Made by a program: the position numbers and the translations under genes. Shown here piece after piece: positions 20,544 to 44,147 of a stretch of DNA of 64,000 bases (its first letter is position 1; every line of letters starts with the position of its first letter). Location of the stretch: NCBI GenBank assembly GCA_016178585.1, contig JACOTA010000018.1, positions 34,442-98,441 on the forward strand. Direction: 5' to 3'. Origin of the DNA: Nitrospirota bacterium. Lineage in GTDB: Bacteria; Nitrospirota; Nitrospiria; JACQBW01. The notes under the pieces were generated by a model, which ran no database searches, was not told the origin of the DNA, and saw only the letters and a program-made list of their open reading frames with translations.

Positions 20544-20638
20544 TGTTTTTCGTTTTTTAAAAATCCAATTCAACAAGACGGTTTTTTCTCTTGCATTCCG
20601 CTCTAACAAATTTATAGCAAATTTATATCAGTTCTTGA

Positions 20639-21460
20639 GTGCGGCCGGGCAAGGTCGCATCATCCAGCGGGTGAGAATCCCGTCCCGGAAGGCAGGCAAG
20701 CCACCGGGTAGCAAGTCCTTGGAGGGAGGAGGGTAACCTCTGACTTTAAGCGTAGGATAGCAAGCAAACAGGCCGGAGCCTCGAAAGTGACGCGATGGGA
20801 AGGACGACGCTGTTCAAGAAGCGGAAGTCAAAATGGATTTCTCTTCGTAACGGCCAAGAAGAGGCCACTTCCCCGGGGTCGGAGACCATGGCATGTTTGA
20901 CATCAGGATAAGGAAGCCACAAAGTGAACAGCGACATGAGGAGACACTCACCGTTCACAGAAGCGGGGAAGGGGTGGGAACGAAATTGTGTCGCATCGCG
21001 GAGAAAGCTCGAAGGGAACCGGCTTTTCGGTTCACCAGTTTATATCATCTGATGAACCGGGAATTATTACGGGAATGTTTTGAGGCGTTGCGAAAAGATG
21101 CGGCCTCAGGCATTGACGGGGTGACCAAGGAGCAGTACGGCTATAAACTGGAGGAACATCTGGAAGAGCTTGTAGAACGGCTCCACCGGATGGCTTACAG
21201 ACCGCAAGGGGTAAGAAGGGTCTATATCCCCAAGCCGGGAAGTCATAAACAACGGCCAATAGGGATACCCAGCCTTGAAGATAAACTGGTACAGGCGGGA
21301 CTGGTTTCAGCTTTTGCTCAAACGGTATCCTCATCCCCAACCTAGAATTCAGGTTAGGCTATTTTGACCTGCGAAGTGACATTTTGAGGAGCCGTGTGCG
21401 TTAATTGCGCAAGCACGGTTCTGTGAGGGGCCGGGGCCAACGGGTGTAGGGTTGAAATAC
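20639..21460 (+). mobile_element. Compact group II intron (about 0.8 kb) with internally deleted IEP: 5' GUGCG start, truncated RT ORF in domain IV, canonical domain V, short domain VI
   Basis: 5' GTGCGGCC at 20639; RT0-RT2 protein motifs; domain V 21388-21421 AGCCGTGTGCG-TTAATT-GCGCAAGCACGGTTC with AGC triad and 2-nt bulge. Confidence 0.65.
20893..21345 (+). pseudogene. Truncated group II intron-encoded reverse transcriptase (only RT0-RT2; RT3-7, X and En regions absent)
   Basis: FTSLYHLMNRELLRECFEALRKDAASGIDGVTKEQY...VRRVYIPKPGSHKQRPIGIPSLEDKLVQ; ORF stops 45 nt before domain V. Confidence 0.7.
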
Positions 21461-21509
21461 TGTGGCACCGCCGGGAAACCAGGCGGCAACGGAGAAGACG
21501 AATCTCAAC

Positions 21510-22472
21510 CTATAACACCTGAAGAAACCGGTCTACTCGACCTTTATACAACCTCATCAACTTTTGTAAAGACTGATCAGGATTTCTTCTTTCTGCCTGA
21601 CGTTGAAGGTGAGATACCCGTGAGGAAGAAATACCAAACATCTTCGCCACCTCCTTTAACCTTAAATTAACCACCTGTCTGAAGAGATACACCGTAGCAT
21701 GATACGCTTCCTGATGGTGACGTTTAAAAATATCCTTTTGACCAACCCCGTATACCTGACATATTTTGTTTAAAACTTCTTCTTTTTGGGGCCTCATGGG
21801 CTGACTCTGCTCTTTTGGTACCTCACTTAAGGAATAATGCTCAATCTGTTTTTCGCTTTCCTTTAAAAATTCTTCTTTCCCCAACCAGATTTGCCCCCGT
21901 AAATTCTCCCATGGAGAACTCATCCTTATTCCTTCTTTCACAAATCTCTGATAAGCCACTCTGGCTGATCCTTCTCCTCTTCCAAATTGACTCAATACCC
22001 ATTTTGTTTCTAACCATTCCGGTGGTTTTTCTAAACCCATTGTTGGAAGAAGACTGCTCCAGGGCCATTCTTCTATTTTCGCAACGATTCCCGCTCGAAT
22101 TGGATTGAGCACAATATACCGGCATAACTCAAGAAGATAGTTCTCTCGATCAACAATGATGCTTTTGTATCGCCCCTGGAATACATGCCCAACCATCCCA
22201 TGACGGCGGTTAAACGCTTGTGTGTAGACCCCATTGAGTCTGCGCATTCCATCCACTAAATTGCCTTCCGGAGTTTCAATCAGTATGTGATAATGATTGG
22301 TCATGAGGCAATAAGCATAGCACTTCCAGCCCTGTTGTTGAATCTCACGGCCCAGGAATTTTAAAAAAAACTCCCGATCTTGATCATCAAGATAGATGTC
22401 CTGCTGACGGTTCCCACGCGCAGTCAGATGATAGAGCGCTCCCGGATATTCTATGCGTAATGGTCTTGCCAT
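21510..22472 (-). CDS. IS200/Y1-type HuH transposase-like protein (COG1943, long form) with C-terminal DnaA-C-like HTH
   Basis: PGALYHLTARGN...CYAYCLMTNHYHILIE...GHVFQGRYKS; C-terminal QVYGVGQKDIFKRHHQEAYHATVYLFRQVVNLRLKEVAKMFGISSSRVSH. Confidence 0.8.
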   Translation of the reverse strand: MARPLRIEYPGALYHLTARGNRQQDIYLDDQDREFFLKFLGREIQQQGWKCYAYCLMTNHYHILIETPEGNLVDGMRRLNGVYTQAFNRRHGMVGHVFQGRYKSIIVDRENYLLELCRYIVLNPIRAGIVAKIEEWPWSSLLPTMGLEKPPEWLETKWVLSQFGRGEGSARVAYQRFVKEGIRMSSPWENLRGQIWLGKEEFLKESEKQIEHYSLSEVPKEQSQPMRPQKEEVLNKICQVYGVGQKDIFKRHHQEAYHATVYLFRQVVNLRLKEVAKMFGISSSRVSHLQRQAERRNPDQSLQKLMRLYKGRVDRFLQVL

Positions 22473-22670: not shown

Positions 22671-25358
22671 ATGATGTTGCGTTCTTTTTTTATTTTTCTA
22701 CCTCTGACTTTTTTATTATTGGCCGGATGCGCTAAAAACAACAGTAGCAGCGCACCTGATTTCTCTGTTCAAATACGGGGGAATGTGATTGACTCCCTCG
22801 TTCAGGGAGGGAATGTCACCGCTTACTCTTTTAATACAGGCCAAATAGGAGAGGTCCTGGGGTCAGCGCAAACCGACACTCAGGGGTTATACTCCTTAAC
22901 GATTAAAAGTTATTCCGGTCCGGTTTATCTTGAACTTCGGGGCGGAACTTACGTAGATGAAGCGACCGGAGCGGTCACTTCTTTGACCCGCGATCAGTTT
23001 CTTTCGGCCATTAAATATATTGAGGGGGGGAAAGATATCGGATCTTTGATGATTACCCCGCTCACCACAATCGCCGCGAAACTGGCCGGAGCCAGGATCA
23101 ATTCAGGGAAATCTATTTTTACCGCCATCGATGAAGCCAATAACGATGTCACCCATCTTTTCGGCATCAATATTTTGACAACCTACCCCCTTAATTTAAC
23201 CGGAGGGCTCACCTCTTTTTCTGATTCTGCCCATTATGGCTTAATTCTGGCAGGGTTATCTCAAATGGCCGCGCAAATTTCCGAGTTCAATGGCGTTCAG
23301 CCAGGGAATATCTACCCGTCGATTAAAGTTGCCGACGCGATGGCGATTGACGCTTCGGACGGTATCCTGGATGGAAAAGAAAATGGCCAGCAGATTTTTC
23401 TGGGGAGCTATCCGTTGGACTCTTACAGCTACCGGTCGAAATTGGGACAGGCCGCTATTCTCTTTTTATCAAACCCCAATAACCGTTCCGGATTAGGATG
23501 GAATGACGTGATTACCGCGTTAAATACGACCGCGTCGGTCACGAACATATTCCCGGCGGGTGATCTGCCGAAACCGGTCGATGAAACACCTCCAACGATT
23601 ACTCTTATCCCGCAGAACAACACAGCGGTCAATAAAACGGTTACAGTGACCGCCCATGCCGCCGACCTGTCAGGAATTGCGAGTTTAACGCTTACTCCGG
23701 GAATTTTGATCACCCCGCAATCTGAAGGCCAAAAGGGAGACATTTCAACCTATGTCTATATCTTTGACTCAACCAAGATTCCTGACGGAGACGTCACTTT
23801 CACCGCCACAGCGGCAGACCGGGCAGGGAATCAGGCACAGGCTTCAATGACGCTTCGGGTTTTTAACACTCCTCCAGTTTTAAATATGACCCTCCTGACA
23901 GGGAGCTGGGTGAATCAACCGATGTTCAATATCACCGGAACCGTGAAGGATAACTCCAATCTGGGAATGGCATCAGTCGTGGTGGGCCCCGTTACCGCGA
24001 CAGTGACCACCTCGACCCTCTCCGGTACGGCGCCGGCAACGTTTACCGCTTCTGTTCCCCTTATCCCCGGGAATAATCCGGTGGATATTGTCGCAACCGA
24101 TAAGTTAGGAAACACCACGACCATTAAAGGTTATACCCTGATCTTGGACAACACTCCGCCGACAGTATCAGTCAATCCAACTCTATATTTCGATGAAACT
24201 CAGATGACCTTTTCTTTTCAACCTCCGCAAATTAATTATTCTACAGCCGGCGCTATCCGAACAACGGTTGACGCCGCGAATGCCGTCATCAACAAAAATC
24301 AGGCACGGCTCTCCATTGGAACCGGAGGGATAAATACACTTAACTTAAATAGTATGAATCTTCCTTACTACAGTATCTCCGTCAACGATTCCGGATATCC
24401 CTCGACCCCTTTTAGCCAACTCCAGGTCTTTTATTCTTTCTCACAAAAGAAAACAAACGATTCGGCTTATGTCGTCATTAAAGATTTTTCACCGGCTGTT
24501 ATTGATTCTTCAAACACTGCCGGAAACGGCTATTTAATCCCGATTGCGGAAGAAACCCTTGATCCGATCCTGACTCAGACAGACCCTTCGACCTTAAACA
24601 GGATTCAGATTAAAGCCATTGATGGGGGAGGGAACGTCACCTATCAGGATTTAATCTTCTCAATTAATCTCTTTCCACCCCCGCTCTATCTGGCAGAAGA
24701 CCCTGCTTTTCCATCCGCCTCTGCGCAGGATAGGACATCGCTTTATTTTTATCACTTTGGTGTTCGATCTTCTCTTTATATCGCGGGGAATGTCAATGTC
24801 GGAAAAATCAACATTTCTAACTTCAGTCCGGTCAAGCTTTATCTCTCCACCTCTTTTACACAAAATACCAGTGCCTTGACTGTTGGGGTCAGCGCTATCG
24901 GAACCGGGTCTTTTAGTTGTTACCTTGGATGTTACAACATTCCGGTTAACAAATCTTACGTCTATCCTCATGCTTTAACTGTCAATAATCAGTTCTTATT
25001 CAACAGCCAGACGAATAATCCTCTTCCTCTTCAACCCAACGGATTTTACCAGATCAACCCCGGGGAAACGGTTTATTATTGGGTTCAATCGAGTTATTCG
25101 GGACCCCCTGTTTATAACGATATTCCACCTTATAATTATCCGCCGCTCAATACCTGTTACAGGACCGACACCTCTCTTAATTTCTCACATGGGGCTTTTT
25201 TAAGTATCTCTTCCATGCCGGCGCTTTTAAATAATGTCATGGGTAACAATAAAACGCTCTACAGTTTTATATTTAATCAATATCTATACTGGCCGGGGAA
25301 CCCTGATTTTTCTTCAATTCAAAACAACGGAACATACTTCACAAACTGTCTCCCTTAA
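22671..25358 (+). CDS. Large lipoprotein (895 aa) with Ig-like/Big-type beta-sandwich domains; function unknown
   Basis: Lipobox LLAGCAKNNSS; repeated TPPTIT/TPPTVS-led beta-sandwich segments; Thr/Ser/Asn-rich. Confidence 0.65.
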   Translation: MMLRSFFIFLPLTFLLLAGCAKNNSSSAPDFSVQIRGNVIDSLVQGGNVTAYSFNTGQIGEVLGSAQTDTQGLYSLTIKSYSGPVYLELRGGTYVDEATGAVTSLTRDQFLSAIKYIEGGKDIGSLMITPLTTIAAKLAGARINSGKSIFTAIDEANNDVTHLFGINILTTYPLNLTGGLTSFSDSAHYGLILAGLSQMAAQISEFNGVQPGNIYPSIKVADAMAIDASDGILDGKENGQQIFLGSYPLDSYSYRSKLGQAAILFLSNPNNRSGLGWNDVITALNTTASVTNIFPAGDLPKPVDETPPTITLIPQNNTAVNKTVTVTAHAADLSGIASLTLTPGILITPQSEGQKGDISTYVYIFDSTKIPDGDVTFTATAADRAGNQAQASMTLRVFNTPPVLNMTLLTGSWVNQPMFNITGTVKDNSNLGMASVVVGPVTATVTTSTLSGTAPATFTASVPLIPGNNPVDIVATDKLGNTTTIKGYTLILDNTPPTVSVNPTLYFDETQMTFSFQPPQINYSTAGAIRTTVDAANAVINKNQARLSIGTGGINTLNLNSMNLPYYSISVNDSGYPSTPFSQLQVFYSFSQKKTNDSAYVVIKDFSPAVIDSSNTAGNGYLIPIAEETLDPILTQTDPSTLNRIQIKAIDGGGNVTYQDLIFSINLFPPPLYLAEDPAFPSASAQDRTSLYFYHFGVRSSLYIAGNVNVGKINISNFSPVKLYLSTSFTQNTSALTVGVSAIGTGSFSCYLGCYNIPVNKSYVYPHALTVNNQFLFNSQTNNPLPLQPNGFYQINPGETVYYWVQSSYSGPPVYNDIPPYNYPPLNTCYRTDTSLNFSHGAFLSISSMPALLNNVMGNNKTLYSFIFNQYLYWPGNPDFSSIQNNGTYFTNCLP

Positions 25359-43323: not shown

Positions 43324-44004
43324 GGTTTAATCCTAGCTTAGAGTCACCCGCCAAGTCAAGATTCTTGCCCACCCCCAGTTTTATCCCAAAGAACCGAGAC
43401 CAAGGCCGGGGGAGGGGGTTGGAGGAATGGGGCGTACGCCAAACAACCCTTTAAGAGACAAACGTGCCTGCCTGAAGTGCGTCTCATGAGCATTTCAGGC
43501 CATTGCAATCACGACAGAGGAGACACTAACGGGAGACGTTTTGACCCGTGACGGAAACTCCCTCCCCTGGCCTGAAAAAACGAATATTTTAAAAAACTGG
43601 GGGTGGCAAGAGCGGAGATTTATTCTTTCCCTGTTTTTTGGATTTATGGGAAACAATTTGCCACTTTCTTATCAATTTCATTAAAAAAATCAATTGATTG
43701 ACTAAAATTCTGCTCCTACTGCAATATTTTTAAATAAAATTATTAAATTTCAATGGGTTATAGGTTTGGCAAAGAAATTGCTATATACTCTCATGATAGT
43801 CTTGTGGTAATATCATTTTTATTTTTAGGGAGAGGTCATTTTGGGAGAATTATTGATTGTTTTGTCATTTTGCTTGGTTGTAACTTTACACAAATATCTT
43901 TAAGTTTTTTTAATTCACTTCCCCCCATCAATCCAGTCCAAAATAAAGACGACTGTTTTTATTTGACTTCCATTCAAACAGCATATTAAGATAAAAACCT
44001 AAAC

Positions 44005-44147
44005 ATTTCGCAAGGGGTGCCGGCGGCTGAGAGTCTTTCAAAAGAGAGGACAACCCTTTGAACCTGATCTGGATAATGCCAGCGAAGGGAAGCGGTTAAA
44101 AGAATAACGAAAACCGTGTCTCCGATGGCTGACGCGGTTTTTTTTTG
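44005..44147 (+). promoter_or_regulatory. TPP (THI-box) riboswitch with intrinsic-terminator expression platform, upstream of thiC
   Basis: GGGGTGCC...GCTGAGAG...AACCCTTTGAACCTGATCTGGATAATGCCAGCGAAGGGAA (44014-44094), then ACCGTGTC...GACGCGGT + T9 (44112-44147). Confidence 0.85.

What the first reader, a model, noticed from the sequence alone, without database searches (positions are those of the whole stretch)
20639..21460. Miniaturised group II intron with maturase gutted to RT0-RT2 but canonical domain V retained, lying 50 bp from an IS200-like gene
A GUGCG start and a near-consensus domain V (AGC triad, 2-nt bulge, hexaloop) bracket an ORF that stops after the first RT motifs. RT3-7, the X/thumb and En regions are missing. 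Only about 45 nt separate the ORF end from domain V, so this is an internal deletion derivative (about 0.8 kb) that could still splice in trans-complementation with a full-length copy elsewhere. It sits in an evidently mobile neighbourhood (AAA+ DUF4143 ATPase upstream, Y1 transposase-like gene downstream). The region before the ORF (about 330 nt) is short for DI-DIII, so it may also be 5'-truncated or belong to a compact class.
Basis: partly seen in the sequence, partly recalled or inferred. Interest (0 to 1): 0.55.

Follow-up and report, generated by a model that had tools for sequence, protein, structure and literature searches.

The report
Deletion-riddled dead group II intron
This is a real but broken copy of a bacterial group II intron: both ends survive, three internal deletions have removed about half of it including parts of the ribozyme core, and such inactivated copies are common in bacteria.

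Summary
Rfam finds group II domain I (117 bits) and domains V/VI in the window. Full-length relatives are about 1,980 nt with constant geometry.

The window copy has three internal deletions:
- 22 nt inside domain I.
- 142 nt that remove the closing strands of domain I, all of domain II, J2/3 and most of domain III. The adjacent maturase start codon now reads AGT.
- About 908 nt that remove RT3-7 and the X domain, leaving the last 20 codons out of frame.

A covariance model of domains II-III scores 89-177 bits in 14 held-out relatives (122-177 in the 13 not disrupted by an insertion). It finds nothing in the 64-kb window.

The 5' GUGCG, an EBS1 with seven perfect pairs to the 5' exon, domain V and a long branched domain VI are intact. 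The intron sits antisense in the last three codons of a RayT-like transposase gene. Joining the flanks restores that family's conserved ...YKVKN* end.

No second maturase is in the window, and no protein more than 77% identical exists in 5.8 billion sequences. The best reading is a splicing-dead, immobile relic, probably of class F. It is ordinary and of low interest.

The parts
20632..20638 (+). IBS1 in the 5' exon (UUCUUGA)
   Evidence: Seven Watson-Crick pairs with EBS1 at 20814-20820. The same loop pairs with the 5' exon by at least 6 pairs in 62% of relatives, against 4% of mismatched loop/exon combinations.
20639..21541 (+). Whole group II intron relic, 903 nt. It is 925 nt in Logan contigs L001/L002 and 1,973-1,993 nt in typical full-length relatives.
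   Evidence: The 5' boundary comes and the 3' boundary. Joining 20638 to 21542 restores the conserved ...YKVKN* end of the target gene.
20639..20908 (+). Domain I remnant. It holds the 5' GUGCG, the 5' strands of the two closing helices (20645-20649 and 20655-20664), the internal subdomains and the EBS2 region (about 20785-20790).
   Evidence: Rfam RF02005 at 117.3 bits. Alignment A1 and the consensus structure on A2, in which 56 of 124 pairs show compensatory changes.
20775..20776 (+). Site of a 22-nt deletion inside domain I (TAAGCCAAGCGCTGAAGGGATT)
   Evidence: The 22 nt are present in L001/L002, which are otherwise identical, and in all relatives. The Rfam score rises from 117.3 to 125.6 bits when they are present.
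20814..20820 (+). EBS1 (UCAAGAA) in a variable hairpin loop of domain I
20907..20910 (+). Junction of the 142-nt deletion. It removes the 3' strands of the domain I closing helices, domain II, J2/3 and most of domain III.
   Evidence: The distance from the 5' end to RT0 is 508 nt in relatives, 366 nt in L001 and 344 nt in the window. Pairwise alignment, structure map and no DII-DIII hit with model R1.
20910..20922 (+). Remnant of the 3' strand of domain III (AAGGAAGCCACAA)
   Evidence: It aligns without gaps to AAGGAGGCUACAC of L032.
20923..21306 (+). Maturase remnant, codons 1 to about 128 (RT0, RT1, RT2). The native ATG position reads AGT at 20923-20925.
   Evidence: It is 71% identical to residues 13-137 of the L006 maturase.
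20893..21345 (+). The annotated 150-aa ORF. It is a chimera of 10 codons read through domain I/III RNA, the RT0-RT2 remnant and an 11-residue out-of-frame tail.
   Evidence: Pfam finds no domain in it.
21303..21306 (+). Junction of the deletion of about 908 nt (RT3-7 and X/thumb)
   Evidence: The distance from RT0 to domain V is 1,310 nt in relatives and 402 nt here. tblastn finds nothing for residues 138-433.
21305..21367 (+). Last 20 codons of the maturase plus its stop, in the +1 frame relative to RT0-RT2 (FQLLLKRYPHPQPRIQVRLF*)
21388..21422 (+). Domain V. It has the AGC triad at 21390-21392, an AG bulge at 21412-21413 and a 5-nt loop at 21402-21406. The loop differs from the family majority (AAAUA) at two positions; only A to U at 21406 hits a position invariant in all relatives, while 21402 also varies (G) in three relatives.
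21425..21541 (+). Domain VI. The basal helix pairs 21425-21434 with 21528-21538, the bulged branch A is at 21535 (seventh nucleotide from the 3' end), a branched insert of about 90 nt follows, and the 3' end is ...GAC.
   Evidence: Rfam alignment. RNAalifold on 9 sequences gives 15 pairs with compensatory changes. Conserved terminus.
21510..22472 (-). Target gene: a RayT-like Y1 tyrosine transposase with a C-terminal HTH. Its last 9 codons and stop (21510-21541) are antisense intron sequence that replaces the native VKN*.
   Evidence: Pfam Y1_Tnp E 1.5e-11. NCBIfam NF047646 at 85.5 bits against a cutoff of 80. Homologues end in ...YKVKN*.

Best explanation
The element at 20639-21541 is an inactivated copy of a compact bacterial group II intron from a lineage whose maturase has no endonuclease domain, probably class F. 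A full-length copy inserted by EBS1-IBS1-guided reverse splicing into the antisense strand of the last three codons of a RayT-like transposase gene. Because it is antisense and intergenic in effect, the host never needed it to splice.

The copy then lost about 1,070 nt in three internal deletions, or was already deleted when it inserted. These are 22 nt in domain I, 142 nt covering the domain I closing strands, domain II, J2/3 and most of domain III, and about 908 nt covering RT3-7 and X. The ATG position next to the 142-nt deletion now reads AGT.

What remains cannot form the catalytic core and encodes no maturase, so it can neither splice nor move. The 150-aa 'RT' ORF is an annotation artefact of read-through.

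Shown: the boundaries, the deletions, the absence of DII-DIII, the intact DV, DVI and EBS1, and the insertion site. Inferred: the loss of catalysis (from the established roles of J2/3, DIII and the domain I scaffold), and the order and timing of events.
For: - Rfam hits to DI and DV/DVI.
- Constant geometry in about 45 relatives: 508 nt from the 5' end to RT0 and 1,310 nt from RT0 to DV, against 344 and 402 nt here.
- Alignments A1 and A3 place the deletions.
- The consensus structure with covariation maps them onto the DI closing helices, DII, J2/3 and DIII.
- Model R1 of DII-DIII scores 89-177 bits in 14 relatives not used to build it (122-177 in the 13 without a nested insertion) and at most 14 bits, at unrelated sites, in the window. 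It finds nothing in L001.
- tblastn finds only maturase residues 13-137 and 434-458, and no other maturase in the 64 kb.
- The C-terminal remnant is out of frame.
- The same two large junctions occur in three independent assemblies: the window and the Logan contigs L001 and L002.
- EBS1-IBS1 form 7 perfect pairs.
- Joining the flanks restores the family-conserved ...YKVKN*.
- The best non-self protein is at most 77% identical among 5.8 billion sequences.
- The review PMC4424553 states that most bacterial intron copies are truncated or inactivated and often lie among mobile DNA.
Against: - The retained parts carry very few point changes at positions invariant in all relatives: 2 in domain I outside the junction and 2 in the 3' part, which is no more than in several intact relatives. 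The decay is therefore recent, or the remainder is still constrained.
- The RT0-RT2 reading frame is still open.
- Only 64 kb of the genome could be examined, and repeated introns often fail to assemble, so a full-length paralog elsewhere cannot be excluded.
- Loss of catalysis is inferred, not measured.
Confidence: 0.88

Rival explanations
1. One reading: a non-autonomous mini-intron that still splices, and perhaps moves, when a full-length relative supplies the maturase in trans, like the ORF-less introns of Thermosynechococcus.
For: The 5' GUGCG, EBS1, DV and DVI with its branch A are intact, and EBS1 matches the 5' exon perfectly. There are few substitutions at invariant positions. ORF-less bacterial introns served in trans are documented (PMC4424553).
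Against: The documented ORF-less introns keep a complete ribozyme. Here the DI closing strands, DII, J2/3 and most of DIII are missing, along with the DIVa region next to the native start codon. There is no maturase elsewhere in the window and no close relative in the protein database, which includes assemblies of the same sequencing runs. The element is seen at one locus only, and the junction 26-mer is absent from JGI metagenome contigs.
Confidence: 0.04
2. Assembly artefact: a full-length intron was collapsed by the assembler because of repeats, so the deletions are not real.
For: Group II introns are repeated and break assemblies. The window and the Logan contigs differ by a 22-nt indel.
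Against: The 142-nt and 908-nt junctions are identical in the NCBI MAG and in two Logan contigs from different runs. No other copy exists in the window to recombine with. The ATG position reading AGT and the frame shift are sequence-level features, not joins.
Confidence: 0.02
3. Exapted remnant: the relic now serves the host. It could provide the new C-terminus, stop and 3' end of the RayT-like gene, act as an antisense or 3'-UTR RNA, or express a 150-aa RT0-RT2 peptide.
For: The last 9 codons and the stop of the RayT-like gene come from the intron. The 150-aa ORF is open and is preceded by GGAG. The retained parts are well conserved.
Against: Homologues function with the native ...YKVKN* end. 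The ORF start lies in conserved RNA and is fortuitous, and Pfam finds no domain in the ORF. RT0-RT2 alone has no known fold-independent function. With a single locus there is no comparative evidence of selection.
Confidence: 0.05

Closest known systems
Truncated or inactivated bacterial group II intron copies (Dai & Zimmerly surveys; review PMC4424553)
   Same: A retroelement copy outside an essential gene, next to other mobile DNA, with the ORF and ribozyme damaged. The review describes this as the majority state of bacterial copies.
   Different: Truncation from one end is the form usually described (my recollection, not checked in a paper here). This copy keeps both termini and has three internal deletions.
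Bacterial class F (IIF) group II introns, for example Ge.ur.I1, Pe.th.I2 and D.a.I1 (PMC3753933)
   Same: The full-length relatives have about 615 nt of RNA outside the ORF, a 5-nt domain V loop, a long and highly structured domain VI, EBS1 and EBS2 in domain I, and a maturase without an endonuclease domain. They occur in Geobacter- and Desulfo-type hosts.
   Different: Class membership was not tested by maturase phylogeny. The window copy lacks DII, most of DIII and most of the ORF.
ORF-less but splicing-competent bacterial introns (Thermosynechococcus ORF-less copies, C.te.I1)
   Same: The maturase gene is lost while the intron termini and domain V are retained.
   Different: Those introns keep all six RNA domains and, with one known exception (C.te.I1), live beside closely related maturases. 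This one lacks core RNA domains and no close maturase is detectable.
Degenerate organellar introns and Euglena group III introns
   Same: Reduced introns that keep the 5' end and a domain VI-like element.
   Different: Those lie in essential genes and are spliced with host factors. This one is antisense at a gene's 3' end in a bacterium, so nothing requires it to splice.

Membership tests
Group II intron (ribozyme) | 5' GUGYG and 3' AY termini | tested here: met
   GUGCG at 20639-20643 and ...CUCGAC ending at 21541. Both boundaries are shared with relatives and confirmed by the empty-site reconstruction.
Group II intron (ribozyme) | Domain I with EBS1 complementary to the 5' exon | tested here: met
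   UCAAGAA at 20814-20820 pairs with UUCUUGA at 20632-20638, 7 of 7 positions. RF02005 scores 117 bits.
Group II intron (ribozyme) | Domain I closed by its basal helices | tested here: not met
   The 3' strands (A2 columns 309-318 and 322-326) fall within the 142-nt deletion.
Group II intron (ribozyme) | Domains II and III and the J2/3 linker | tested here: not met
   Model R1 scores 89-177 bits in 14 held-out relatives. Its best window hit is 14 bits at 23395-23495, an unrelated site.
Group II intron (ribozyme) | Domain V with the catalytic AGC triad and a 2-nt bulge | tested here: met
   21388-21422. RF00029 scores 41.8 bits against a gathering score of 40. Structure.
Group II intron (ribozyme) | Domain VI with a bulged branch-point A 7-8 nt from the 3' end | tested here: met
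   A21535 is bulged in a helix supported by covariation.
Group II intron (ribozyme) | Self-splicing or maturase-assisted splicing | not testable with these tools
   This needs RT-PCR or in vitro assays.
Mobile group II intron (retroelement) | Domain IV encodes an intact RT plus X (maturase) protein | tested here: not met
   Only residues 13-137 and 434-458 remain, the latter out of frame, and the start-codon position reads AGT. A full-length relative scores 362 bits on TIGR04416.
Bacterial class F (IIF) | 5-nt domain V loop, long structured domain VI, and 450-700 nt of RNA without the maturase (PMC3753933) | tested here: met
   The loop is AAAUA in most relatives and UAAUU in the window. Domain VI is about 117-170 nt with covariation. 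Relatives of about 1,980 nt minus an ORF of about 1,365 nt leave about 615 nt.
Bacterial class F (IIF) | Maturase groups with class F in phylogeny, and the alpha' motif lies at a stem-loop terminus in DId3 | not tested
ORF-less trans-complemented introns | A complete ribozyme plus a closely related maturase in the same genome | tested here: not met
   The ribozyme is incomplete. No maturase is in the window and no protein exceeds 77% identity. The rest of the genome was not available.
REP-associated tyrosine transposase (RayT) - the neighbouring gene | Match to the curated family model, with the HUH motif present | tested here: met
   NF047646 scores 85.5 bits against a cutoff of 80. Pfam Y1_Tnp E 1.5e-11. 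H60-Y61-H62 is invariant in alignment A6. Flanking REP repeats were not examined.

The most novel reading that the evidence does not exclude
The relic may not be junk. Domain I, DV and DVI are almost free of substitutions at family-invariant positions, and EBS1 still matches its exon. A fragmentary group II RNA could therefore be maintained, for example as a non-autonomous element completed in trans by the DII-DIII RNA and maturase of a full-length copy elsewhere in the genome. That would be a bacterial analogue of organellar split introns.
Probability: 0.03. Interest if true: 0.6.

Novelty: already known. Interest (0 to 1): 0.1.

Why it matters
It matters mainly for annotation.
- The 150-aa 'RNA-directed DNA polymerase' is a pseudogene fragment fused to read-through RNA sequence.
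- The intron's true extent is 20639-21541.
- The 320-aa 'transposase' has an intron-derived C-terminus in place of the native VKN*.

The locus is also a clean worked example of how an En-less, probably class F intron lands at a site matched only by EBS1 and then decays by internal deletion. It opens no new question about group II intron biology.

Tried and rejected
- 5' truncation was rejected. Homology to relatives starts at the same GUGCG in the window and in every relative.
- A 'compact class' explanation for the short 5' part is only partly true. The lineage is compact, with about 450 nt before the ORF, but the window is a further 164 nt shorter because of deletions.
- A short domain VI ending near 21460 was rejected. 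The conserved 3' terminus lies at 21541, and the long domain VI is lineage-wide and supported by covariation.
- Loss of an En domain was rejected, because full-length relatives have none.
- I looked for other copies of the mini form. An exact 26-mer across the large junction found nothing in JGI metagenome contigs, and the protein look-up found only the same locus in two Logan contigs.
- I looked for a close full-length parent. The best non-self hit in the protein database was 74-77% identical. The genome-contig scan returned 80 relatives, at most 78% identical, and none from this genome.
- I looked for excess point-mutation decay and found none, so relic status rests on the deletions alone.
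- A link between this intron lineage and RayT-like genes or REP-like palindromes showed up in a few loci, but enrichment was not tested and it is not claimed.
- A literature search for the NaphS2 introns found nothing.

Full report
**Is it there?**

Rfam's curated thresholds give two group II hits on the + strand. RF02005 (group-II-D1D4-6) matches 20674-20888 at 117.3 bits, E 1e-32. RF00029 (domains V/VI) matches 21387-21541 at 41.8 bits, with a large insertion inside domain VI. The only other Rfam hit in the 64 kb is an unrelated TPP riboswitch.

The 150-aa ORF at 20893-21345 is identical to a protein annotated 'RNA-directed DNA polymerase' in a Nitrospirae MAG. It has hundreds of relatives that are 63-77% identical. 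Pfam sees no domain in it. The feature is therefore real and far beyond chance.

**Comparison set**

A scan of species-representative genomes returned 80 loci encoding relatives of the RT0-RT2 segment. They come mostly from Desulfobacterota and Geobacteraceae, with some Nitrospirota and Gammaproteobacteria.

In these loci the geometry is nearly constant:
- 508 nt from the 5' GUGCG to the start of RT0.
- 1,310 nt from RT0 to domain V.
- A 454-463-aa maturase with no endonuclease domain, whose stop lies a few bases before domain V.
- A total length of 1,973-1,993 nt.

A full-length maturase scores 362 bits on NCBIfam TIGR04416, group II RT/maturase.

**Boundaries**

At the 3' side all relatives share ...GAGAAACCGGUCUACUCGAC and then diverge. 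This places the window's 3' end at 21541.

Domain VI is about 117 nt here. It has a basal helix (21425-21434 with 21528-21538), a bulged A at 21535 that is the seventh base from the end, and a branched distal insert. In 9 sequences, 15 pairs show compensatory changes.

An independent check confirms both boundaries. The minus-strand gene 21510-22472 is a RayT-like Y1 transposase (Pfam Y1_Tnp; NCBIfam NF047646 at 85.5 bits against a cutoff of 80). Its homologues have a modal length of 313 aa and end in ...YKVKN*. The window protein ends ...LYKGRVDRFLQVL*. Joining 20638 to 21542 and reading the minus strand gives ...LMRLYKVKN*.

The intron therefore sits antisense inside the last three codons of this gene, and its last 32 nt supply the gene's present C-terminus and stop. 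It does not lie 50 bp away from the gene.

**What is missing**

The consensus structure of 22 full-length relatives has 124 pairs, 56 of them with compensatory changes. On alignment A2 it maps as follows:
- Domain I, columns 7-326, closed by helices 7-11/322-326 and 17-26/309-318.
- Domain II, columns 327-425.
- J2/3, columns 426-428.
- Domain III, columns 429-481.
- The maturase ATG, right after domain III.

Against this map the window shows three deletions.

1. A 22-nt loss after 20775 inside domain I. The 22 nt are present in every relative and in two Logan contigs of the same locus that are otherwise identical. With them the Rfam score rises to 125.6 bits.
2. A 142-nt loss with its junction at about 20907-20910. 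It removes the 3' strands of both closing helices of domain I, all of domain II, J2/3 and domain III except its last 13 nt. The native ATG position reads AGT at 20923-20925. The annotated ATG at 20893 lies in the conserved domain I sequence CCAUGGCAUG and is fortuitous.
3. A loss of about 908 nt with its junction at about 21303-21306. It joins RT2 (...LVQAGLV) to the last 20 codons of the maturase (FQLLLKRYPHPQPRIQVRLF*), which are in the +1 frame.

Two further tests agree. tblastn with two full-length maturases finds only residues 13-137 and 434-458, and no other maturase anywhere in the window. A covariance model built from domains II-III of 22 relatives scores 89-177 bits in 14 relatives not used to build it, 122-177 in the 13 that carry no nested insertion. 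Its best window hit is 14 bits (E 0.06) at an unrelated place, and it finds nothing in L001.

**What is intact**

- The 5' GUGCG.
- Most internal subdomains of domain I.
- EBS1 (UCAAGAA, 20814-20820), which forms seven Watson-Crick pairs with the last seven bases of the 5' exon. The same loop pairs with its own exon by at least 6 pairs in 62% of relatives, against 4% for mismatched loop/exon combinations. This validates the EBS1 assignment and shows that the copy arrived by a cognate reverse-splicing event.
- Domain V, with the AGC triad, the AG bulge and a 5-nt loop closed by U.G.
- Domain VI.

At positions invariant in all relatives the window differs at only 2 sites in domain I outside the junction and 2 sites in the 3' part, one of them in the domain V loop. 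This is no more than in several intact relatives.

**Mechanism**

Shown:
- A full-length type intron inserted at a site matched by EBS1. The upstream GGGG(A/T)CA motif seen in many relatives' exons is missing here, so the site looks ectopic for the lineage.
- The present copy lacks core RNA and almost the whole maturase.

Inferred from established knowledge of group II ribozymes:
- J2/3 and domain III contribute directly to the active site.
- Domain I must be closed to act as the scaffold.
- DIVa is the maturase's main anchor.
- The RNA therefore cannot splice, and a maturase supplied in trans would not rescue it.

Because the intron is antisense to the only gene it touches, its death costs the host nothing. 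The scarcity of point changes says the deletions are recent, or that the copy was already deleted when it inserted. I cannot distinguish these two.

**Comparison with what is known**

The review PMC4424553 states that most bacterial group II intron copies are truncated or inactivated and often lie among mobile DNA. It also says that ORF-less but functional bacterial introns are rare and live beside related maturases. This element belongs to the first group.

The lineage itself fits bacterial class F as described in PMC3753933: a 5-nt domain V loop, long and highly structured domain VI stems, 450-700 nt of RNA without the maturase, and hosts such as Geobacter. Relatives here have about 615 nt of non-ORF RNA. 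I did not run a maturase phylogeny, so class F is probable, not proven.

**Rivals**

- A trans-complemented mini-intron is unlikely, for the structural reasons above. In addition, no close maturase is seen and the element occurs at one locus only.
- An assembly artefact is unlikely, because the two large junctions recur in three assemblies.
- An exapted role cannot be excluded but has no support.

**Verdict**

The end coordinate and the functional reading need correcting. The element is an ordinary, known kind of object and of low interest.

Noticed in passing
window 44003-44107 (+): TPP riboswitch aptamer, Rfam RF00059 at 75.8 bits against a gathering score of 54.3.
   Followed up: no
window 20775/20776 versus L001 1521-1542: The NCBI MAG sequence lacks 22 nt of domain I that two Logan assemblies of the same locus carry. 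This is either strain polymorphism or an assembly difference.
   Followed up: partly
L035 5113-5511 (-), plus L006, L007, L040 and L045: In a Nitrospirota MAG a full-length relative lies antisense inside the 5' part of another RayT-like gene. RayT-like genes lie within 4 kb of the intron in four more loci. Enrichment over chance was not tested.
   Followed up: partly
5' exons of L006-L048 (for example L016 3468-3492 and L025 1615-1639): Many relatives have GGGG(A/T)CA 8-14 nt upstream of the splice site, covarying with UUG(U/A)C in the EBS2 region. In L033 the intron splits a perfect 14-nt inverted repeat, and in L025 an imperfect one. The window site lacks the GGGG motif.
   Followed up: partly
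L013, L015, L028 and L078: Other rearranged copies exist in this lineage. L013 has about 2 kb inserted in the 5' part, with extra DII-DIII-like hits. L015 has about 2.7 kb inserted before domain V. L028 is about 380 nt longer. L078 is about 314 nt shorter in the ORF.
   Followed up: no
proteins P0015 and P0029: Two different truncated RT proteins share a non-RT tail (VMTPRTQKITS.FS) straight after the RT4 motif GTPQGG. This suggests a conserved nested insertion or a recurrent contig join at that point.
   Followed up: no
L032 3493 and L019 3496: L032 has the same EBS1 loop as the window (UUCAAGAAG) but a non-complementary 5' exon. L019 and L032 share 5' flanking sequence, so they may be orthologous insertions with a drifted EBS1.
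   Followed up: no
one search hit list: All 120 best protein hits to the RT0-RT2 fragment are at most 262 aa, although full-length maturases of 454-463 aa exist in genomes. Most look like contig-end or frameshifted fragments, which shows how badly these repeats assemble.
   Followed up: partly
L046 3167-3245 (-): A c-di-GMP-I riboswitch (RF01051, 53 bits) lies just upstream of an intron copy in a gammaproteobacterial MAG.
   Followed up: no
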